IMG/VR virus record: IMGVR_UViG_3300028591_000161 | Coordinates: 19,179-83,178 of that record | Length of the DNA stretch: 64,000 nucleotides | Source: a virus | Lineage: Duplodnaviria; Caudoviricetes | Direction: 5' to 3' (one strand) | In this document: positions 727 through 16,259 of the stretch, piece after piece | Layout of the letters: every line of letters starts with the position of its first letter | Numbering within the stretch: position 1 is the stretch's first letter | Translations under genes and position numbers: made by a program | Notes under the pieces: model-generated | Told to the model about the DNA's origin: nothing | The model's input: only the letters and a program-made list of their open reading frames with translations | Database searches by the model: none

Positions 727-754
727 AATTAATCATATAAAGGAGGAATAACAC

Positions 755-2941
755 ATGGCAAAACCGAGAAAGACGGAAAACCCTGATGAGGTCATCAAGT
801 GGATGAATCCGGATATGGAAGAGGAAACGACGTCCGGAAAGGGTGATGATGAAGACCTCGATGCAACGCCGGAAGGTGTTGGTGCTGGTGGATTTACCAA
901 TTCGCCCCTGGTGACATACACAAAGCTGTCACCATTTAAGAACTCTCCAAGAAACCAGCCGATCTCAAAGATCATCATTCACCATATGGCAGGTGTTGCA
1001 TCAGTTGAATCATTCGGTACAATTGTCACAACACCTGGACGCGAGATGTCTGCGAACTATGCAATCGGTAATGATGGACGGATTGGTCTGTATTGCCCTG
1101 AAGAAGACAGATGCTGGTGTTCTTCTTCTGCATGGGTGGATAACCGTGGCATCGCAATCGAAGTATCAAATTCCAAGCTTGGTGAACCATGGCCGATCTC
1201 CAAAAAAGCATGGGATTCGATGATTGCGTTGTGCGCAGATATCTGCAAGCGCAACAATATTCCGAAGCTCACATATACTGGTGACAAGGAAGGATCCCTC
1301 TGTTTCCACAGATGGTTCGCGCCAACAGGTTGTGTTCCGATCGATACAACAGAAGTGCTGACACCGACCGGTTGGGTTCCAATTCGGGATGTACAGATCG
1401 GTGATGTGATTGCAACGGTATCGCCACAAGATTTCTCAATCCGGTTCGACAAGGTTGAGAACATGGTTCCTGTTCATAAGGATACCATATTCAATCTTCG
1501 TGGCATGGATATCACAAAAGATCATCGTATTCTGTATTCCGTGGAAGGTGGTAGTGGATATCATCTGAACGAGTATCAGAAGGTCGCAGAAGGACAGATG
1601 CTGAATATTCCTGAAGCAGGTATCTATGACGCCAAAGGCATGGATATCACATCATCACAAATGATATTCCTGCTCGAGATGCAACGAGTTGGAATGTATG
1701 ATGATGAATTCCATACACTCGAATTCGCATATATATCCGAACAACAGGTTGGATATATGGACGGGCTTCTGAAGAATCTCGAGTATTCATTCACACGAGA
1801 ACAAGACGACCTGGGTCCTGTTAGATTCGTTGTCACTGATCCGAGAGCATGGAATCTTTGCATCTCCTATTTGTCAGGAAGCGATTTCAACTGGAAATGG
1901 TTGGAGATGAATCCAACACAGTTCTCGTATTTCATCTACAAGGCAACATCTCATGTGCGTACAGGATGGACCCGTCGGTACACATCTAATTCAATGACGA
2001 ATATCGATATCGTTCAAGCAATCTGTGCTTTGAATGGACGTGGAACGGAATTTGATCCCGAAACGAATTCATTGTATGTGAAGAATGGATATCGTCAGGT
2101 ATCGACAAAGGAAGCTCGCACAACTGATGACGTCGATGTTGCATGTGTAACCGTCAAGTCCGGATGCTTCCTGATGCGTCAGCATGGAATGACGACTCTG
2201 ACAGGTAACTGCCCTGGTGAGTACATTTATTCACGTGCACAACAGATTTGCGATGAAGTCAACGCGAAGTTGGCTGAAATGCCTGAACCAACACCTGAAC
2301 CGGATCCTGAACCAGTGCCGGTTCAAATCAAACCTGGTGTGCTGGTATCTGTGAAAACAGGTGCAAGCTATTACAATGGTGCAAAGATCCCTGACTGGGT
2401 CACAAAACAAAGATGGTACGTAACATCAGTATCTGGTGATCGTGCTGTACTTGGCAAGAATGAAGCTGGAAATTCCAATATCAATTCACCGGTTTCAACC
2501 AAGAATCTCACCGTTGTCCAGAACGCATCTGCACAACCGGAAACAAAATTCATGCCATACTTGACAAAGCTTGCTGCTGGCACAAATATCTATGACATCA
2601 ATACTCTGAATCTGAAAGGACAAATCATGATTTCGACGGCATATACAATTGTCGAAGAGACTGTTCTGAATGGTGCTAAGTATGGTAAGTTGAAATCGGG
2701 TGCAGGATGGGTTCGTCTGGGATCCGATACTACTCAGCCTGTTGACAATACGATTCATCCCGGTGATAAAGTGTCTGTCATAAGTAAAGATGGAACTGCT
2801 CCTACATATGAAGGTGGTTCATTCCATGTTTACGAGAAGGAATATACCGTTCTTCGTGTCAACGGAGATCGTGTCGTGATTTCTTCGGATGGGAAAAATG
2901 TGACTGCTGCCGTTAAGGCATTGAATTTGATCAAAAAATAA
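755..2941 (+). CDS. Endolysin: N-acetylmuramoyl-L-alanine amidase (Amidase_2) with internal intein, Pro/Glu linker and C-terminal SH3b-like cell-wall-binding repeats
   Basis: RBS AAGGAGG. Amidase motifs TNSPLVTYTKLSP, IIIHHMAG, SANYAIGNDGRIG, NRGIAIEVSN, FHRWF...CPG. PEPTPEPDPEP linker. SH3-like segments (YGKLKSGAGWVRL; WYVTSVSGDRAVLG; YTVLRVNGDRVVI). Confidence 0.9.
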   Translation: MAKPRKTENPDEVIKWMNPDMEEETTSGKGDDEDLDATPEGVGAGGFTNSPLVTYTKLSPFKNSPRNQPISKIIIHHMAGVASVESFGTIVTTPGREMSANYAIGNDGRIGLYCPEEDRCWCSSSAWVDNRGIAIEVSNSKLGEPWPISKKAWDSMIALCADICKRNNIPKLTYTGDKEGSLCFHRWFAPTGCVPIDTTEVLTPTGWVPIRDVQIGDVIATVSPQDFSIRFDKVENMVPVHKDTIFNLRGMDITKDHRILYSVEGGSGYHLNEYQKVAEGQMLNIPEAGIYDAKGMDITSSQMIFLLEMQRVGMYDDEFHTLEFAYISEQQVGYMDGLLKNLEYSFTREQDDLGPVRFVVTDPRAWNLCISYLSGSDFNWKWLEMNPTQFSYFIYKATSHVRTGWTRRYTSNSMTNIDIVQAICALNGRGTEFDPETNSLYVKNGYRQVSTKEARTTDDVDVACVTVKSGCFLMRQHGMTTLTGNCPGEYIYSRAQQICDEVNAKLAEMPEPTPEPDPEPVPVQIKPGVLVSVKTGASYYNGAKIPDWVTKQRWYVTSVSGDRAVLGKNEAGNSNINSPVSTKNLTVVQNASAQPETKFMPYLTKLAAGTNIYDINTLNLKGQIMISTAYTIVEETVLNGAKYGKLKSGAGWVRLGSDTTQPVDNTIHPGDKVSVISKDGTAPTYEGGSFHVYEKEYTVLRVNGDRVVISSDGKNVTAAVKALNLIKK
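1331..2209 (+). mobile_element. Intein (293 aa) in the endolysin amidase domain, probably with a degenerate LAGLIDADG-type central region
   Basis: Block A CVPIDTTEVLTPTGWVPIRDVQIGD (Cys codon at 1331), block B ITKDHR (TxxH), block F DVACVTVKSGCF, block G TTLTGN followed by +1 Cys (TGC 2210). Excision restores HRWFAPTG-CPG. Confidence 0.9.
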
Positions 2942-2946
2942 ATGAA

Positions 2947-2971
2947 ATGGGGTGGCTGTACGCCACCCCAT
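2947..2971. terminator. Bidirectional intrinsic terminator
   Basis: ATGGGGTGGC-TGTAC-GCCACCCCAT between convergent genes ending at 2941 and 2980. Confidence 0.75.
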
Positions 2972-2979
2972 TCATCGCA

Positions 2980-3458: not shown

Positions 3459-5291
3459 ATGGCCGAGCTAATCAAATCACAACCTCCACGTCCGATGAAA
3501 TTTGCACCGGATACATTACTCTTTGATGTGCGATATTATCGGCGGAGCAAGGATAATGCAGAATGTTTTGAAATCATCACATGGAATCCGGTGACACAAA
3601 CACTCGAGGTTGATTATGAGGATCCAATCATTGATATCTGGTTTTTGAAACCGGAATTCCGAAATAATAAGTATCAGATTGCACAAGTAGACATGGATAA
3701 ATGTTATCCATTCTATTGTAGGCCATCGCAGGTAGCGGCAGTTATTGCACAGGAGATCGGTGGCGAATGGGCAGATTGGTATCAACATAATAAAGACCAA
3801 TACCCACGAAATGATGTCCAGCGTCATATGTGTGAATGCCCATGGGTGTTTGCTGCAGACTTTGAACCACCTGTTTATTATAGACTGCGATGGTTCGAGC
3901 AGTATGGAAAACAGATCGACTTGACAAAAGTATCTGACAGCTATCTGGATATTGAGACCGATGTCATTGACCGCGAAATCAACATGAAAGATATCTTCAA
4001 TTCACCGCATCCTGTGAATGCAGTAACATTGATTCTTCCACATGTTAAAATCGCGGTATTGCTTGCATTGGGCCCGAGACCAAAGCACAAGATCGACAAG
4101 AAATTCTGGGGTCTGTTGGAAATGCAGCAAAAAGAATATGAATGGGTCATTTCCCATATGGATGAATTCAAACGAATGTTACGCGAAGATGATCCGGATA
4201 ATATGAAATATCTGGAAGGGTTTGATATTCGGGTACACATGTTTGAGTTTGATGATGAAATCAAACTGATCAAGACTGTGTTTGATTATATCAATAAATA
4301 TCGTCCGATGTTTGTTGAATCATGGAACGGCAAGTTTGACCATCCAAGACTGTGGCATCGCATTGAATATCTCGGATATGATCCAATCGACATTATGATT
4401 CCAAAGGAATTCAAAACGAAACGACTGTTCTATCAGGAAGACCAATCTGGTAACTTCCAGATGAAAAATTCACGTGACTGGTTCCATACATCTACATATT
4501 CAATCTATATCTGCCAGATGAGATTGTTTGCAGCGATCAGAAAATCGCAACAAGAACGACGGTCATATTCATTGAACTCGGTTGGTTCTGAAATGTGTGG
4601 AATCGTAAAGTTAACCGATACGAAATCTGGCTCATTCCGTGTGTTCGCATATACCGACTATATCAAGTTTCTCTTATATAACTTCCGTGACGTGGTTGTG
4701 CAGTATGCAATTGGTGAAACGACACATGATACACAGACACTCGTATCCCGTTCATTCAACTTTGCAACAGCATATCCGAAATGTTTCCAAGAGACACATA
4801 TCGTTCGGAATGCACGCGAATATTACTATCGGAAGTTTTCCAAGAAAGTACAAGCTTGTCGTCTGATTGTTGATAAGGACCGTGACACCGCATTCAAAGG
4901 CGCATTTGTTGCACCGCCTGAAAAGAATGCACCGACGGGTTTGATCTTAAATGGTAAGAACCATAACAACATCATATTCGGAGCGTTGGATGCTGATGCT
5001 GCATCATATTATCCGTCCACAAAGATGGGTATGAACATGGATCCGATGTCATTGTTGTACAAATGTATCATCATGAATGATCGGTTCCAAAACGGTGAGT
5101 GTACGAATCGTTCTTTGTGTCAGGTATATGAATGGTATGATTCAAAGAACAAACCACATCCGGAAGATATGTCCGGACCGATTATCAATGCATTCAAGAA
5201 TGGAAATCCGTGTTCATTGATGAATAACTGGTTTAGTCTTCCAACCGTATCGGAGTATTTCCAGTTCCTTGATACATGTGATACAAAATAA
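3459..5291 (+). CDS. Family B DNA polymerase, N-terminal subunit (3'-5' exonuclease plus motif A) of a split polymerase
   Basis: ExoI YLDIETD, ExoII WNGKFDHPRL, ExoIII LYNFRDV, motif A LDADAASYYPS; motifs B and C are absent here and occur in 49175-51106. Confidence 0.85.
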   Translation: MAELIKSQPPRPMKFAPDTLLFDVRYYRRSKDNAECFEIITWNPVTQTLEVDYEDPIIDIWFLKPEFRNNKYQIAQVDMDKCYPFYCRPSQVAAVIAQEIGGEWADWYQHNKDQYPRNDVQRHMCECPWVFAADFEPPVYYRLRWFEQYGKQIDLTKVSDSYLDIETDVIDREINMKDIFNSPHPVNAVTLILPHVKIAVLLALGPRPKHKIDKKFWGLLEMQQKEYEWVISHMDEFKRMLREDDPDNMKYLEGFDIRVHMFEFDDEIKLIKTVFDYINKYRPMFVESWNGKFDHPRLWHRIEYLGYDPIDIMIPKEFKTKRLFYQEDQSGNFQMKNSRDWFHTSTYSIYICQMRLFAAIRKSQQERRSYSLNSVGSEMCGIVKLTDTKSGSFRVFAYTDYIKFLLYNFRDVVVQYAIGETTHDTQTLVSRSFNFATAYPKCFQETHIVRNAREYYYRKFSKKVQACRLIVDKDRDTAFKGAFVAPPEKNAPTGLILNGKNHNNIIFGALDADAASYYPSTKMGMNMDPMSLLYKCIIMNDRFQNGECTNRSLCQVYEWYDSKNKPHPEDMSGPIINAFKNGNPCSLMNNWFSLPTVSEYFQFLDTCDTK

Positions 5292-5310
5292 AGAAAGGAA
5301 GGATGCCTTT

Positions 5311-7584
5311 ATGACAGACGAATACTTTGACGATATTGAGAGTATTGAACTCGGAGACATATCAAAGCGATATATGTGTTTATATGGATGGAACATCATC
5401 CTGCAAAGAGCAATCCCGATGCTTACTGACGGTTTGAAACCGTTGCACCGAAGAATCATGTGGGCATTGTATGAGAAGAACGGTGGAGACAAGATGAAAG
5501 TTGCAGAGATTCAGGGTTTGACGATGCGTTATTCGCCACACTCTGAATTGAACACGCGTTTCACGATTGCAGGTTTGGTCCAACCGTTCTCGAATAATGT
5601 ACCACTCATGACGGCAGACTCCGGTTTTGGTTCTTCCATTATGGGTGTTGATGTTGCTGCTGCGAGATACTGGGAAGCAGGAATCTCCCCGTTTGCTAAA
5701 GAAGTATTCTTCAAAGAATTCGATTCCTCAGTAAATATGAAAGATTCATATGACGGAAAATATAAAGAACCTATCACATTTCCCGCACGTTTTCCAGTGA
5801 TCCTTCTGAATGGATCGAATGGAATTGCATATTCCATGTCATCCAATATTCTCCCGTATAATATCAACGAAGTCGCTGATGCTACCATCAAACTGTTGAA
5901 GAATCCAGAAGCCAAAGTGCATCTGATACCAGATTCACCAACATGCTGTGATGTTATCAAGCGTGATGATACCACATTTGTTTTCCAATCAACATACGAT
6001 ATTGATACCGTGAATTACACGATATCGATTATGAACACCCCACCTGGTGAATATATCCATGTGATTGATAAAGCTTTGCGTGCAATTCAGGATTCACCGA
6101 ATCCAATCAAAGAGATTATCTCTCCGGATAATGAGTGTGAACTCACTGAGGACATCTTCAAGTATGTGATTCGTTGTAAACCGTGTAATCTGTATCAAGT
6201 CATCGAGACATTGTTCCGACGTGTCCCTGGATTCAGAATCACGGTATCTACACGAAACTGTTCTGTGATTGATCCACAATTCAGGACGCAATACTACAAT
6301 GAGCGTCAAATCCTGTTAGCGTGGATTGCCAACCGTTTGAAAGAAAAACGCTCATGGTTCCTGCGCAAGCTTGTTCATGTCCAGACGATGTATAACATGA
6401 TGGAAGGCAAACGGTTTATGTTGTCACCCGAGAATCTGAATAAGACGATTAAAGTATTCCGCAAATGTGAAGATGAGAATGAGATCGTTCAAGCGTTGGT
6501 ACAAGCGTACAATGGTAAAGTTTCCACTTCACAAGCAAACTTCGTATCGGGTTTGAGAATGTCCAAATTGACCAACGGCGAATACAAAAAGACTGTGGCT
6601 AAGATTGAAGAACTTGATGAACAGATCACAAGTCTGAAAGCAATCGTGAACAGTCCGGAATGTATTCGCGATAAAGTCATTGAAGACATTAAGATGATTC
6701 GAGAGAAGTTTGGTCATCCGCGTCGTTCTAAGATTCTGAATTTGAAGGACGGAATGACAGCGAATATCTCAACATGCCAGATTCTGAAGGACGGCACAGT
6801 CCTGTTCTCTGAAACAGAAAATCCGAATCATTTCGCGTCTGATGTAACTCCGATCAATGGCGATGAAGTTTGTCTGATTGATCAATATGGTAAGACATTG
6901 TGGGTGAATGTGAATAAGGTTCCGCATGACAGTCCAATTGCATTAACAGCAATCGGGAAAGAACCGATGGGTGCGTGCATCGCAGTAATTCCCAGATCTT
7001 CAAGATCCATTGTCATGCTCACAAATAAGGGGCGTATTAAACTGATGCCAATCGAGAAGATTCCATCAAATCAATCTAGAAAGCCATTGATTCCGTTGAA
7101 CAATGGCGAATATCTGGTATCTATTTTGAATGTCGATGGTTCTTCCGAAGACCTTCTCGTATACACGTCTGATGGTTTTGGCAAACGTTTCTCCGTAACA
7201 GATTTGAACTCTGTAAATTCTCCTGATGCGCAAGGACAGTTCATTGTGAAGGATTGTGATGTCGCTGGTATCTTTGTACTCAATCCGAATAAACCGTACA
7301 TTTTCTATGCTACAAAGCTCGGAAGGGTTCGGTTGAACAACAGTCGCTTCCTTGTTGCTACCAAGAAATTCGGAGGAATGAAACCGATCATCAAACTCTC
7401 TGCACAGGACGATCTGATTGCCGTATTCTGCACGGATAAAGATCAGACGGTGACGTTATATCATGAAGACGGTCGAATCTCATCCGTGAATATCGATACC
7501 ATGGATCCAGTCACGATGAATACGCCTCCAGCAAAACCCAAACATGTCCCAGGTGTAAGAGTGATACGCGCAACATTATCGTGA
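5311..7584 (+). CDS. gyrA: Type IIA topoisomerase subunit A (GyrA/ParC-like) with C-terminal pinwheel-like repeats
   Basis: RAIPMLTDGLKPLHRRIMWAL, YSPHSE (usual YHPHGD), AAARY catalytic Tyr, FPARFPVILLNGSNGIA, FGHPRRSKI. Start moved to ATG 5311 after AAAGGAAGG. Confidence 0.9.
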   Translation: MTDEYFDDIESIELGDISKRYMCLYGWNIILQRAIPMLTDGLKPLHRRIMWALYEKNGGDKMKVAEIQGLTMRYSPHSELNTRFTIAGLVQPFSNNVPLMTADSGFGSSIMGVDVAAARYWEAGISPFAKEVFFKEFDSSVNMKDSYDGKYKEPITFPARFPVILLNGSNGIAYSMSSNILPYNINEVADATIKLLKNPEAKVHLIPDSPTCCDVIKRDDTTFVFQSTYDIDTVNYTISIMNTPPGEYIHVIDKALRAIQDSPNPIKEIISPDNECELTEDIFKYVIRCKPCNLYQVIETLFRRVPGFRITVSTRNCSVIDPQFRTQYYNERQILLAWIANRLKEKRSWFLRKLVHVQTMYNMMEGKRFMLSPENLNKTIKVFRKCEDENEIVQALVQAYNGKVSTSQANFVSGLRMSKLTNGEYKKTVAKIEELDEQITSLKAIVNSPECIRDKVIEDIKMIREKFGHPRRSKILNLKDGMTANISTCQILKDGTVLFSETENPNHFASDVTPINGDEVCLIDQYGKTLWVNVNKVPHDSPIALTAIGKEPMGACIAVIPRSSRSIVMLTNKGRIKLMPIEKIPSNQSRKPLIPLNNGEYLVSILNVDGSSEDLLVYTSDGFGKRFSVTDLNSVNSPDAQGQFIVKDCDVAGIFVLNPNKPYIFYATKLGRVRLNNSRFLVATKKFGGMKPIIKLSAQDDLIAVFCTDKDQTVTLYHEDGRISSVNIDTMDPVTMNTPPAKPKHVPGVRVIRATLS

Positions 7585-14339: not shown

Positions 14340-16259
14340 TCAAGCTTTTACAACCTTTTCAAGAGGTGTTGTTGTTGGTGTAATACCGTCGATATTCTGT
14401 GACAAACCAACATTAATTGCAGTTGAGATATCTTGGAATAATAATCCTTGGAGGATACCGGCACGTTGAACTGCAACGCGGAATGGCTCCTTGTCGTATG
14501 ACATTGGATCAACACCACCTTGACCATATCGCAATGCGAATGACTTTCCACCTGAACGACACACACGACGTGCCATAATTTCATATGTGATGGACGGACC
14601 GGTCAAGTCGATCTTGTTGATTTCCAAACAACGGAACATCATTTCTGTCATCATGTTGTATGGAATTTGTGCCGTTTTTGAATGCAAATATATTTGGTTG
14701 ATATAATATTCGACATTCTTGACGGATTGCCGAATCGCTACGGAGCAGATATTAGAATCCGGCTCATATTGTAGAATGTAGTAGTCTGGATCTTCTTGTA
14801 CATCGTCGTAGATATGGAAGTCCAATGTCGCAGGTACCGTCATGCGTGTTGACAATACTTCACGTCCAGAATTATCATAGAACTTGACAGGAACAACACC
14901 GAATGATGAGCATGTCGTTGCTTCCAATGAGAAACCTTTAAACTCTTCGAACATTCTCGGAATAAAAATTTTCATTGGGATTTTGTTCACGATAAAACCT
15001 TCCCGAATGTCAAAGTAATTGTTCGGCTGTTCGAACAACCACTTCTTGTCGATAACTGATGCAGACTGTGAAAGGTCGTGTTTGGATTTCAATTTTAGGT
15101 TCAGAAGTTTCTGTGTAATAGATGTAACCAACAAACCGATCTGTGTGACTTCCAAATTATGGAATACGCGTCCTGCACACTTTCCACAAATGGATTCGTG
15201 CTTACAACATTGCGGGGAATACAGATTGACAGTCTTACCAACGTACTGACCAATGTTATCAAGTGTAGTAAGAACTTTCTTACCACCCTCATTAATGTAT
15301 CGATACAATACGTACTGTTTATTGTTGTCTGTAATTGTCAGCGGAATTGTTTGCGTAGTTCCACAATCTGAATTTGGATTCGGATCAATGTTGACAGATT
15401 GCAATAATGCGAGAATGATTTTTGCCATGTAACCTGCATCGGCAGTACCAATTGCAGACGGATATGCACCTGCAACAACCGAATTTGCAAATGATGGGAT
15501 ATCTTTGACTTTAATACCATCCATCAATGATGATTCACATACATCAAACTTTCCGGTCAGACCATTGAAAACTGCGCCACGCATGACATTGATTGTCTTG
15601 TAATTATTGTCAAGATTACCATCTCCTGATGCATACATGTCATAACCATAATCGTTCTTAAGATTCTGACGGACAAGAGTCATGAGTTCCTTTTCCATAG
15701 CATTTGATGCAATCAGTTGTTTCGTTGGATCGGATGAATGTAAATCATCTTTGTATTTCTCCAACAATTGCAATTTCAATTGTTGTACATTATGCATCGG
15801 GCGAACAAGCGATGGTGAAATCGATGATGAAAGAAATGCCGCACATTGGAATCCGAGTTTGTCACGACGATCGACAAACTTTCCAAGAATTTTCGTGTCA
15901 ATGACACCGGTAATAACAAGGTTGTTCACGAAGATGTTTAACTTCTTCAAACCCTTTGAATCCAAAGGTGTATTCCAGTATCCAAGATGTTGTATGATAC
16001 CAGTATATTCCAATAGGTATCGATTCATGAACAGGAGTCCGAGTGTTGTCTCGATCTCCTCGGTCACATATTGATATTCAGATTTTGTCAACTTGATATG
16101 ATCATTTGCATTGAATGCCGAAGATTTCTGGGAGTTTGTCGTTCGATCAAAATATGATGCGAACATACCTTCCAACAATGCTTTGTTGAATTCATTAATA
16201 TCCGCCGCAAGAATACGTTGTTTTCCAACCTGTGCGGTAGATGATGTAGGCTGAGCCAT
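14340..16259 (-). CDS. rpoC: Multisubunit RNA polymerase beta' C-terminal subunit (probably virion RNAP)
   Basis: Bridge helix SAIGTADAGYMAK, Zn site DCGT...SPQCC...ICGKCAG, trigger loop IGLLVTSITQKLLNLKLKSKH; lacks NADFDGD, so it is a split subunit. Confidence 0.9.
   Translation of the reverse strand: MAQPTSSTAQVGKQRILAADINEFNKALLEGMFASYFDRTTNSQKSSAFNANDHIKLTKSEYQYVTEEIETTLGLLFMNRYLLEYTGIIQHLGYWNTPLDSKGLKKLNIFVNNLVITGVIDTKILGKFVDRRDKLGFQCAAFLSSSISPSLVRPMHNVQQLKLQLLEKYKDDLHSSDPTKQLIASNAMEKELMTLVRQNLKNDYGYDMYASGDGNLDNNYKTINVMRGAVFNGLTGKFDVCESSLMDGIKVKDIPSFANSVVAGAYPSAIGTADAGYMAKIILALLQSVNIDPNPNSDCGTTQTIPLTITDNNKQYVLYRYINEGGKKVLTTLDNIGQYVGKTVNLYSPQCCKHESICGKCAGRVFHNLEVTQIGLLVTSITQKLLNLKLKSKHDLSQSASVIDKKWLFEQPNNYFDIREGFIVNKIPMKIFIPRMFEEFKGFSLEATTCSSFGVVPVKFYDNSGREVLSTRMTVPATLDFHIYDDVQEDPDYYILQYEPDSNICSVAIRQSVKNVEYYINQIYLHSKTAQIPYNMMTEMMFRCLEINKIDLTGPSITYEIMARRVCRSGGKSFALRYGQGGVDPMSYDKEPFRVAVQRAGILQGLLFQDISTAINVGLSQNIDGITPTTTPLEKVVKA

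What the first reader, a model, noticed from the sequence alone, without database searches (positions are those of the whole stretch)
1331..2212. Intein in the endolysin whose +1 nucleophile is the predicted zinc-ligand cysteine
Seen: a complete intein (C-VPIDTTEVLT...TKDH...TTLTGN) splits the amidase motif HRWFAPTG|CPG. It ends in Gly-Asn rather than His-Asn. Its middle of about 190 aa looks like a decayed LAGLIDADG domain. Established: in Amidase_2/T7-lysozyme-type enzymes the His...CP Cys is the third Zn ligand, and inteins are concentrated in replication, repair and nucleotide enzymes and terminases, rarely in lysis proteins. Inference: the endolysin is inactive until it splices, so splicing rate (sensitive to metal, redox or temperature) could act as a post-translational lysis timer. 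Zn itself is a known splicing inhibitor.
Basis: partly seen in the sequence, partly recalled or inferred. Interest (0 to 1): 0.8.

Follow-up and report, generated by a model that had tools for sequence, protein, structure and literature searches.

The report
Stranded intein inside a phage endolysin
The cell-wall-cutting enzyme of an uncultured jumbo phage is interrupted, directly in front of its zinc-binding cysteine, by a genuine self-splicing protein element whose mobility enzyme is dead; it belongs to a large family of lysin inteins that I did not find in standard databases or papers, and nothing shows that it times lysis.

Summary
ORF 755-2941 (728 aa) is an Amidase_2 endolysin. Residues 193-485 (window 1331-2209) are a 293-aa insert that starts with Cys, ends in Gly-Asn and sits directly before the conserved CPG. 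Intein-less homologues read straight across the site.

Pfam and NCBIfam miss the insert. An AlphaFold model (pLDDT 96.6) matches endonuclease-bearing inteins (TliVMA Z 21) and the AceL NrdHF class 3 intein (Z 18.7). The +1 Cys aligns with the zinc-ligand Cys of PlyL, XlyA and T7 lysozyme.

At least 291 protein clusters carry related inteins, nearly all at this site in Amidase_2 lysins. None is in 50,697 GenBank phage records. The family keeps C1, TxxH, a block-F Cys, Arg-Gln and Gly-Asn, a signature between class 1 and class 3.

Both LAGLIDADG catalytic acids are Val in this copy. Its clade is all intein-bearing with a dead endonuclease that is still under purifying selection. A sister clade with intact acids mixes intein-bearing and empty alleles.

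The best reading is a stranded selfish element that must splice to give active lysin. The lysis-timer idea is untested and is weakened by intein-less orthologues. The scan has noted this family before on other DNA.

The parts
740..746 (+). Shine-Dalgarno-like AAGGAGG, 8 nt before the ATG
   Evidence: Read directly from the sequence.
755..2941 (+). Endolysin precursor gene: 728 aa (P0001) plus stop codon
   Evidence: ORF list and translation. Pfam Amidase_2 scores 58.5 bits against a cut-off of 26.
755..889 (+). Acidic N-terminal extension, residues 1-45, predicted disordered
   Evidence: pLDDT is below 50 for residues 1-45. It is absent from most relatives and present in L033.
890..1330 (+). 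N-extein: main part of the Amidase_2 fold, residues 46-192. It holds His76 (980-982), Glu136 (1160-1162) and His185 (1307-1309).
   Evidence: Pfam match. H76, E136 and H185 are invariant. The profile aligns to PlyL, XlyA and T7 lysozyme. VIA gives Z 16-17.
1331..2209 (+). Intein, 293 aa (P0002)
   Evidence: AF2 pLDDT is 96.6. Foldseek E is 2e-12 to the TliVMA intein. VIA gives Z 21.1 with model range 191-485. 291 relatives were found.
1331..1333 (+). Cys1, the N-terminal splice nucleophile (block A)
   Evidence: Cys in 208 of 212 family members and in 118 of 118 close relatives.
1514..1525 (+). Block B, T62-K-D-H65
   Evidence: T62 in 210 of 212 and H65 in 211 of 212. It aligns with the block B Ser-x-x-His (S-P-N-H) of AceL NrdHF.
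1628..2065 (+). LAGLIDADG-type endonuclease-derived domain (intein residues about 100-245). Motif remnants lie at 1667-1702 and 1931-1969. The catalytic acids are replaced by Val120 and Val209.
   Evidence: Fold matches to PI-SceI, PI-PfuI, I-DmoI and I-SceI. Column counts. Omega is at most 0.34, with synonymous sites saturated.
2144..2146 (+). Cys272, at the block F position 4 equivalent, 21 residues before the terminal Asn
   Evidence: Cys in 211 of 212 members. The spacing equals that of the class 3 inteins Msm DnaB-1 (C118-N139) and Mle DnaB (C124-N145) (PMC5222942).
2177..2182 (+). Arg283-Gln284, a family-specific invariant pair in the region where the block F helper His normally lies
   Evidence: R in 211 of 212 and Q in 205 of 212. 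Its role is inferred.
2204..2209 (+). Gly292-Asn293, the C-terminal splice junction (block G). Thr291 is at G:5.
   Evidence: G in 211 of 212 and N in 211 of 212. T291 is Thr in 119 and Val in 76 of 212.
2210..2212 (+). Cys+1 (residue 486): the C-extein nucleophile and, after splicing, the third zinc ligand
   Evidence: Cys in 208 of 212 members. It aligns with PlyL/PlyG C137 and XlyA C141. T7 lysozyme ligands are His17, His122 and Cys130 (PMC4573324).
2210..2278 (+). C-extein start: CPGEY motif and the last helix of the amidase fold (residues 486-508)
   Evidence: Helix 492-508 in the precursor model. Amidase structures align over model range 51-505.
2330..2938 (+). Cell-wall-binding region made of beta-strand repeats (residues 526-728)
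   Evidence: It aligns with the C-terminal parts of gut-phage endolysins and shares the GKLKSGAGW motif with the SH3-annotated FP_Epona lysin. Pfam finds nothing here.
2945..2973 (.). 12-bp GC-rich hairpin just after the stop codon
   Evidence: Terminator-like scan. The T-run is on the minus strand, so its role for this gene is uncertain.

Best explanation
Window 1331-2209 encodes a genuine, splicing-competent intein inserted in an Amidase_2 endolysin of an uncultured jumbo phage. It sits directly before the Cys that becomes the third zinc ligand. The precursor (728 aa) must excise the 293-aa intein and join Gly192 to Cys486 to restore the H-x7-C zinc site and give a 435-aa lysin. Splicing most likely starts at Cys1 (the class 1 route). 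The invariant Cys272 lies where other inteins have the block F Asp. Arg283-Gln284 probably stand in for the two missing helper histidines during Asn293 cyclisation. The element arrived as a mobile homing intein that targets the conserved H...CPG coding sequence of lysin genes. In this phage lineage it became fixed and its LAGLIDADG endonuclease lost both catalytic acids. It is now inherited vertically. Selection keeps it because any defect in folding or splicing would destroy the endolysin. No regulatory role is needed to explain it. Shown here: the anatomy, the fold, the family, the insertion site, the loss of the endonuclease acids, the presence/absence pattern and purifying selection. Inferred: that it splices, by which route, and that the precursor is inactive.
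For: The insertion is clean relative to intein-less homologues. The HINT plus LAGLIDADG fold is modelled at pLDDT 96.6, with Foldseek E 2e-12 and VIA Z 21.1 to TliVMA and Z 18.7 (rmsd 2.4 A) to AceL NrdHF. C1, T62, H65, C272, R283, G292, N293 and C+1 are each kept in 208-211 of 212 family members and in 118 of 118 close relatives. 66 of 69 sampled host proteins are Amidase_2. The +1 Cys aligns with the zinc ligand of PlyL, XlyA and T7 lysozyme. Val replaces both LAGLIDADG acids here. On the extein tree the window protein lies in a 99*-supported clade of 14 rows, all intein-bearing and all lacking the first acid. A sister clade interleaves intein-less alleles with intein-bearing ones that all keep Asp/Asp; starred branches force at least 5 changes and parsimony gives 9. 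A FastTree of 164 rows needs 19 changes against about 41 when shuffled. Mini-inteins of 138-150 aa and half-deleted 223-aa forms occupy the same site. For the endonuclease-derived domain dN is 0.20-0.51 with synonymous sites saturated, so omega is at most 0.34. AceL NrdHF also lacks both helper histidines and splices within minutes (PMC7891396).
Against: There is no experimental evidence of splicing for any member. Curated intein, Hint and LAGLIDADG models do not reach threshold. The penultimate His and the block F His are absent. The route (Cys1 or Cys272 first) cannot be settled from sequence, and three clusters in the family carry Pro instead of Cys1. The dead endonuclease domain is conserved as well as the splicing lobes, which would also fit an acquired function. 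The record is about 31% complete, so holins and other lysins of this phage were not seen.
Confidence: 0.8

Rival explanations
1. The intein is a conditional switch. Splicing is slowed or blocked by zinc, oxidation or temperature, so active endolysin appears only late or only in a permissive cytoplasm. This would add a post-translational delay to lysis.
For: Three thiols (C1, C272 at block F:4, C+1) and two extein zinc-ligand histidines (H76, H185) meet at the splice junction. In the class 3 Msm DnaB-1 intein the F:4 Cys forms a disulfide on oxidation and reversibly blocks splicing (PMC6195587). The intein is kept with intact splicing residues and a conserved dead endonuclease domain across a whole clade. 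The segment just before the N-junction (residues 187-190) is the only low-confidence part of the amidase in the precursor model.
Against: Orthologous endolysins without the intein are common, some on contigs of 250-274 kb. Presence and absence flip between nearly identical exteins. Active-site insertion is the general habit of inteins, so it is not special evidence. Lysis timing in phages is normally set by holins, and in smaller phages of the family a small membrane-protein gene lies next to the lysin. [quoted passage not shown] There are no data on rates.
Confidence: 0.12
2. The endonuclease-derived domain has taken on a new, non-cleaving job, such as DNA binding, a maturase-like or chaperone role, or docking of the precursor. 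That job, rather than mere splicing competence, would explain why it is conserved.
For: Within the dead-endonuclease clade the domain is 59% identical on average, against 50-55% for the splicing lobes and 53% for the wall-binding region. Omega is at most 0.34. The fold is predicted with pLDDT above 90.
Against: Mini-inteins and half-deleted forms at the same site show that the domain is dispensable for the family. Conservation is also expected if misfolding of a nested domain would block splicing. No motif pointing to a new activity was seen.
Confidence: 0.06
3. The insert is a non-splicing HINT-like domain, or a dead intein, that stays in the mature protein, so this gene gives an inactive or differently acting amidase.
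For: There is no curated intein model hit. The penultimate His is missing.
Against: Every splicing residue is invariant in 118 of 118 relatives, together with the amidase catalytic residues. That pattern is expected only if splicing is required to make a working enzyme. Gly-Asn is the family norm.
Confidence: 0.02

Closest known systems
Endonuclease-bearing inteins TliVMA and PhoVMA (PDB 7QSU, 7QSS, 7QST), PI-SceI (1VDE) and PI-PfuI (1DQ3)
   Same: A HINT splicing domain with a nested LAGLIDADG domain. Whole-length structural match: Z 17-21, about 280 residues aligned, with model range 193-485 matching chain residue 1 to the last residue. Cys1 and the terminal Asn are shared.
   Different: Only 9-15% sequence identity. 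Those inteins sit in V-ATPase or ribonucleotide reductase genes of archaea and yeast and end in His-Asn with a block F Asp. This one sits in a phage lysin, ends in Gly-Asn, has Cys at block F:4, and has lost both endonuclease acids.
AceL NrdHF class 3 split intein (PDB 6ZGQ; PMC7891396)
   Same: It is the best PDB intein hit by sequence profile (E 4.5e-6; E 1.3e-4) and matches the HINT domain at Z 18.7, rmsd 2.4 A over 146 of 154 residues. It has Cys at F:4, Thr at G:5 and a hydrophobic non-Trp residue at B:12 (Met70; Ile67 here). It lacks both the F:13 and the penultimate histidine, and is probably of phage origin.
   Different: AceL has Ala1 and a Ser+1, is naturally split, carries no nested endonuclease and lies in a ribonucleotide reductase gene. 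The window intein has Cys1 and Cys+1 and is contiguous.
Msm DnaB-1 class 3 intein (PDB 6BS8; PMC6195587, PMC5222942)
   Same: His65 at B:10 and a Cys 21 residues before the terminal Asn (C118-N139; C272-N293 here). The fold matches at Z 15.2. It is a precedent for redox control through the F:4 Cys.
   Different: It has the Trp-Cys-Thr triplet with Trp67, no N-terminal nucleophile and a helicase host. Conditional splicing was shown by experiment there and not here.
Amidase_2 endolysins PlyL (1YB0), PlyG (2L47), XlyA (3HMB/3RDR) and T7 lysozyme (1LBA)
   Same: The exteins together form this fold (Z 16-17 over model residues 51-505) with the His, Glu, His-x7-Cys catalytic set.
   Different: None of these carries an insertion before the zinc-ligand Cys.

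Membership tests
Intein (protein-splicing HINT element) | HINT fold with N and C termini brought together | tested here: met
   AF2 pLDDT is 96.6. Foldseek E is 2e-12 to 1e-7 to solved inteins. VIA gives Z 15-21 to more than 30 intein entries.
Intein (protein-splicing HINT element) | Cys/Ser/Thr at position 1, block B TxxH, C-terminal Asn, and Cys/Ser/Thr at +1 | tested here: met
   C1, T62-x-x-H65, N293 and C+1 are present here and in 208-211 of 212 relatives.
Intein (protein-splicing HINT element) | In-frame insertion at a conserved site of a host protein, with intein-less homologues contiguous across the site | tested here: met
Intein (protein-splicing HINT element) | Penultimate His (typical, not obligatory) | tested here: not met
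   Gly292. This is the family norm, 211 of 212. AceL NrdHF also lacks it and splices.
Intein (protein-splicing HINT element) | Match to curated intein models (Pfam Hint, Intein_splicing; NCBIfam) | tested here: not met
   Only Hint_2 at E 0.2, 12.5 bits against a cut-off of 28.4. NCBIfam finds nothing. PF14890 finds nothing in the record. This is a limit of the models, not a defining trait.
Intein (protein-splicing HINT element) | Excision and extein ligation actually occur | not testable with these tools
   This needs protein expression.
Class 1 intein | N-terminal Cys/Ser/Thr that forms the linear (thio)ester | tested here: met
   Cys1 is present (PMC5222942 definition). Its use as the first nucleophile is inferred.
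Class 3 intein | No N-terminal nucleophile | tested here: not met
   Cys1 is present here. Three related clusters have Pro1.
Class 3 intein | Trp at B:12 | tested here: not met
   Ile67. In the family this position is Val, Met or Ile. AceL NrdHF has Met.
Class 3 intein | Cys at F:4 and Thr at G:5 | tested here: met
   C272 lies 21 residues before N293, as in Msm and Mle DnaB, and is Cys in 211 of 212 members. T291 is Thr. The position was assigned by spacing and strand pattern, not by a residue-level structural alignment.
Active LAGLIDADG homing endonuclease | Double alpha-beta-beta-alpha-beta-beta-alpha fold | tested here: met
   Foldseek matches to I-DmoI, I-SceI, I-Tsp061I and the endonuclease domains of PI-SceI and PI-PfuI.
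Active LAGLIDADG homing endonuclease | Acidic residue at the end of each LAGLIDADG helix, for metal binding | tested here: not met
   Val120 and Val209, where relatives have Asp in 139 of 212 and Asp/Glu in 161 of 212.
Amidase_2 (PF01510) zinc amidase | Family profile match and fold | tested here: met
   58.5 bits against a cut-off of 26. Z 16-17 to XlyA and PlyL across both exteins.
Amidase_2 (PF01510) zinc amidase | His, His and Cys zinc ligands plus catalytic Glu | tested here: met
   H76, H185, C486 and E136 are invariant and align with the PlyL, XlyA and T7 residues. They are contiguous only after splicing.
Bacterial intein-like (BIL) domain | HINT domain in variable, non-conserved protein positions, without a nested endonuclease | tested here: not met
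   This insert sits at an invariant catalytic site, carries an endonuclease domain and has empty-site alleles.

The most novel reading that the evidence does not exclude
The splice junction of this lysin-intein family may be a built-in metal and redox sensor. Cys1, the invariant block-F Cys272 and Cys+1 lie beside the two histidine zinc ligands of the amidase. Zinc loading or thiol oxidation of the precursor would then decide whether and when active endolysin is made. This would be a post-translational checkpoint on lysis, and the family would also bridge the class 1 and class 3 splicing routes (Cys1 members and Pro1 members on one scaffold).
Probability: 0.12. Interest if true: 0.85.

Novelty: new variant of a known kind. 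Interest (0 to 1): 0.55.

Why it matters
Inteins are thought of as parasites of replication, repair and nucleotide-metabolism genes. Here is a very large family that lives in phage lysis enzymes: at least 291 clusters at 50% identity. It is missed by Pfam and NCBIfam, absent from 50,697 GenBank phage records, and not described in the papers I could search. Automatic annotation therefore mis-sizes these lysins and overlooks the element. This matters for anyone mining metagenomic endolysins as antibacterials, because expressed as annotated they carry a 33-kDa insert at the active site. The catalytic signature is Cys1 together with the class 3 type Cys at F:4, often Thr at G:5, Gly-Asn, and an invariant Arg-Gln. 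With Pro1 variants in the same family, it offers a natural series for asking how class 3 splicing arose. The clean contrast between a mobile clade (acids intact, alleles polymorphic) and a fixed clade (acids lost) is a textbook case of the homing cycle that could be tested experimentally. If splicing proved conditional, it would be a new layer of lysis control.

Tried and rejected
- Pfam and NCBIfam scans of the insert gave nothing above threshold. A single-sequence PDB search of the insert and of an intein-less lysin gave nothing. Only profiles and structure worked.
- A tblastn search of GenBank phages with the intein gave one weak hit to an unrelated intein-like stretch in a methylase.
- The search for related loci on genome contigs failed twice for lack of a conserved stretch.
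- A strict degenerate DNA pattern gave 5 genome hits. In one search, four of them (L028, L029, L030, L032) held an intein of this family. The Labrenzia locus L031 showed no intein and is taken as a chance match. The Bacteroidales MAG contig L030 is a near relative of the window gene, but MAG binning of phage contigs is unreliable, so I draw no host from it.
DNA of the closest relatives (81% and 75% identical) could not be fetched, so the dN/dS estimates rest on more distant loci with saturated synonymous sites.
- A hydrophobicity scan for holins next to the window gene gave only spurious overlapping frames. It did show plausible small membrane-protein genes next to the lysin in L007, L014, L017 and L027.
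- Rfam and tRNA scans of the window found nothing.
- Literature searches on intein with endolysin, amidase or lysin found no natural lysin intein. The library lacks most subscription journals, so this is not proof of absence.
- I considered a BIL domain, a non-splicing insert and a gene-fusion artefact, and rejected them (see membership tests and rivals).
- Model coordinates could not be read, so distances between C1, C272, C+1 and the His ligands were not measured.
Full report
**What is there**

The window is part of an 83-kb IMG/VR virus record that is about 31% complete. Close relatives of the gene lie on contigs of 228-285 kb. Neighbouring genes encode a DNA polymerase, topoisomerase II, a helicase and a multisubunit-type RNA polymerase beta subunit. 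This is an uncultured jumbo phage.

ORF 755-2941 (+) follows an AAGGAGG ribosome-binding site and encodes 728 aa. Pfam finds Amidase_2 at residues 67-172 (58.5 bits against a cut-off of 26). The best GenBank matches are endolysins of gut Clostridia phages (Faecalibacterium, Ruminococcus, Acutalibacteraceae) at 41-52% identity. Several of these align in two pieces that skip residues 193-485.

A four-way alignment shows that residues 193-485 are one clean insertion between HRWFAPTG and CPGEY.

**Is it an intein?**

Curated sequence models say almost nothing. Hint_2 scores E 0.2, NCBIfam finds nothing, a PDB phmmer search finds nothing, and PF14890 and PF14528 find nothing in the whole record.

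An exhaustive HMMER search of 1.84 billion representative proteins found 291 relatives (114 at E below 1e-10). Nearly all match residues 1-293 end to end, at about residue 140-160 of proteins of 550-700 aa.

With 69 of these as an alignment, AlphaFold2 gave a model with mean pLDDT 96.6 and pTM 0.92. It has beta-strands at both ends and an alpha/beta domain in the middle. The structural matches are:
- Foldseek's best PDB hits are endonuclease-bearing inteins: TliVMA at 2e-12, then PhoVMA, PI-PfuI and PI-SceI. Free LAGLIDADG enzymes, hedgehog HINT and mini-inteins follow.
- In a model of the whole precursor (pLDDT 84.6), VIA-align gives Z 21.1 to TliVMA (286 residues, model range 191-485).
- PI-SceI and PI-PfuI align from their residue 1 to their last residue onto 193-485.
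- The AceL NrdHF class 3 intein matches at Z 18.7, rmsd 2.4 A over 146 of 154 residues.

The fold evidence is unambiguous.

**Splicing residues**

I aligned 212 full-length family members to a family HMM. The counts are:

| Residue | Kept in (of 212) |
|---|---|
| Cys1 | 208 |
| Thr62 | 210 |
| His65 | 211 |
| Cys272 | 211 |
| Arg283 | 211 |
| Gln284 | 205 |
| Gly292 | 211 |
| Asn293 | 211 |
| +1 Cys | 208 |
| +2 Pro | 199 |
| His at -8 | 181 |

Among 118 close endolysin relatives, all of C1, C272, R283, G292, N293 and C+1, and the amidase residues E136 and H185, are kept in 118 of 118. H76 is kept in 115, with 3 gaps.

Gly-Asn is therefore the family rule, not decay. Cys272 lies 21 residues before the terminal Asn. 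That is the spacing of the block F:4 Cys in the class 3 inteins Msm DnaB-1 (C118-N139) and Mle DnaB (C124-N145), whose block B His is also residue 65 (PMC5222942).

The closest intein in the PDB by sequence profile is AceL NrdHF. The paper on it reports Ala1, Met at B:12, Cys124 at F:4, Thr144 at G:5, no histidine at F:13 or G:6, and splicing within minutes (PMC7891396).

The window intein has Ile67, Cys272, Thr291 and Gly292, and it does have Cys1 and Cys+1. By definition it is class 1, because an N-terminal nucleophile is present, but it carries class 3 type hallmarks. Which thiol attacks first cannot be read from sequence. I favour Cys1 because it is 98% conserved.

**The zinc-ligand claim**

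A profile of the family aligns the Cys at the junction with C137 of PlyL and PlyG and C141 of XlyA, and matches T7 lysozyme to the same end point. PMC4573324 states that the Amidase_2 zinc site of T7 lysozyme is His17, His122 and Cys130, and that the corresponding C139S mutant of Ts2631 loses activity.

The spacing His185-x7-Cys is restored only after splicing. In the precursor model the amidase fold is assembled from both exteins (XlyA Z 16.9 and PlyL Z 16.2, model range 51-505), with the intein emerging at the zinc site. The four residues before the N-junction are the only low-confidence part of the amidase. That the precursor is inactive is a reasonable inference but is not shown.

**The endonuclease**

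The family consensus has two LAGLIDADG-like helices ending in Q-A-D-G and D-G. The window copy reads Q-R-V-G and H-V-R. Asp occupies the first position in 139 of 212 members, and Asp or Glu the second in 161 of 212. By the established mechanism of LAGLIDADG enzymes, losing these metal-binding acids abolishes cleavage, so this copy cannot home.

The domain is not falling apart, however:
- Within the dead-endonuclease clade it is 59% identical on average, against 50-55% for the splicing lobes and 53% for the wall-binding region.
- In codon comparisons of the window with five related loci, dN is 0.20-0.51 while synonymous sites are saturated (pS 0.6-0.8), so omega is at most about 0.34.

The simplest reason is that a misfolded nested domain would block splicing and kill the lysin.

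**Life history**

66 of 69 sampled hosts are Amidase_2 proteins with many different wall-binding modules: PG_binding, SH3, CW_7, SPOR, LysM and choline-binding.

The site also holds mini-inteins of 138-150 aa and a 223-aa form with half the endonuclease deleted. Related Gly-Asn inteins occur in other large proteins.

Intein-less orthologues exist:
- P0308 (392 aa) is 63% identical end to end to the in-silico spliced product.
- Others lie on contigs of 250 and 274 kb.

On an IQ-TREE tree of exteins (35 intein-bearing and 25 intein-less rows), the window protein sits in a 99*-supported clade of 14 rows. All 14 are intein-bearing and all have lost the first acid.

The sister clade of 44 rows interleaves empty alleles with intein-bearing ones that all keep Asp/Asp, some on nearly identical exteins. 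Starred branches force at least 5 changes and parsimony gives 9, against 19.5 when shuffled. A FastTree of 164 rows needs 19 changes against about 41.

This is the homing cycle: invasion, fixation, endonuclease decay and size reduction.

Family members occur in phage contigs of 25-144 kb. A few genomes or MAGs labelled Clostridia, Bacteroidota and Actinomycetota also carry them. In several smaller phages a small membrane-protein gene adjoins the lysin, as in a holin-endolysin cassette.

**The timer idea**

Nothing computed here supports it. Three points weaken it: empty-site orthologues exist, the presence/absence pattern is that of a selfish element, and a relative with the same missing histidines splices fast.

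It is not excluded. Three thiols and two zinc-ligand histidines meet at the junction, and an F:4 Cys is a proven redox toggle in Msm DnaB-1 (PMC6195587). I rate it about 0.12.

**Novelty**

I found no natural lysin intein in the searchable literature. The survey of 224 mycobacteriophage LysA proteins states that none is interrupted by introns or inteins. No member of the family is in GenBank phage records.

Earlier notes of this same scan describe the same family on sister jumbo-phage genomes and a Pro1 member. I reached the same main conclusions independently here.

Noticed in passing
P0060, P0070, P0075; L029:1576-3393 (-) and L015:3479-5242: Members of the same lysin-intein family start with Pro instead of Cys1. 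They keep TxxH, the block-F Cys, Arg/Lys-Gln, Thr at G:5 and Gly-Asn|Cys. They may splice by a class 3-like route through the internal Cys.
   Followed up: partly
P0101, P0122, P0123, P0137, P0140, P0143; P0255-P0269: Mini-inteins of 138-150 aa, and a 223-aa form lacking half of the endonuclease domain, occupy the same site before CPG in other Amidase_2 lysins.
   Followed up: partly
P0106, P0115, P0126, P0135, P0145, P0146, P0148: Related Gly-Asn inteins, followed by Ser or Thr, occur in larger proteins (587-2020 aa). Several of these proteins carry two copies. Their host proteins were not identified.
   Followed up: no
P0031, P0096 (297 aa each): There are proteins of intein length only. P0096 has degenerate splice motifs. 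They are possibly free-standing endonuclease derivatives or gene-call fragments.
   Followed up: no
window 755-889: A 45-residue acidic, disordered N-terminal extension precedes the amidase. It is shared with L033 but absent from most relatives and from intein-less homologues. It is not a signal peptide.
   Followed up: no
window 755-2938 versus P0153, P0154, P0164: The lysin is a mosaic. Relatives with 93-95% identical N-exteins have inteins that are 82%, 63% or 54% identical and wall-binding regions that are 59-81% identical. This suggests the modules recombine independently.
   Followed up: partly
window 14340-16259 (-): This ORF matches a phage multisubunit RNA polymerase beta subunit over residues 44-398 and a virion structural protein family over residues 413-585. 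That fits a phiKZ- or AR9-like jumbo phage with its own RNA polymerase.
   Followed up: no
window 3459-5291 and 5269-7584 (+): The DNA polymerase-like ORF (610 aa) overlaps the start of a topoisomerase II ORF by 23 nt. The polymerase match covers only part of the PHROG profiles, so the polymerase may be split or divergent.
   Followed up: no
window 2945-2973: A 12-bp GC-rich hairpin lies immediately after the endolysin stop codon. Its T-run is on the opposite strand.
   Followed up: no
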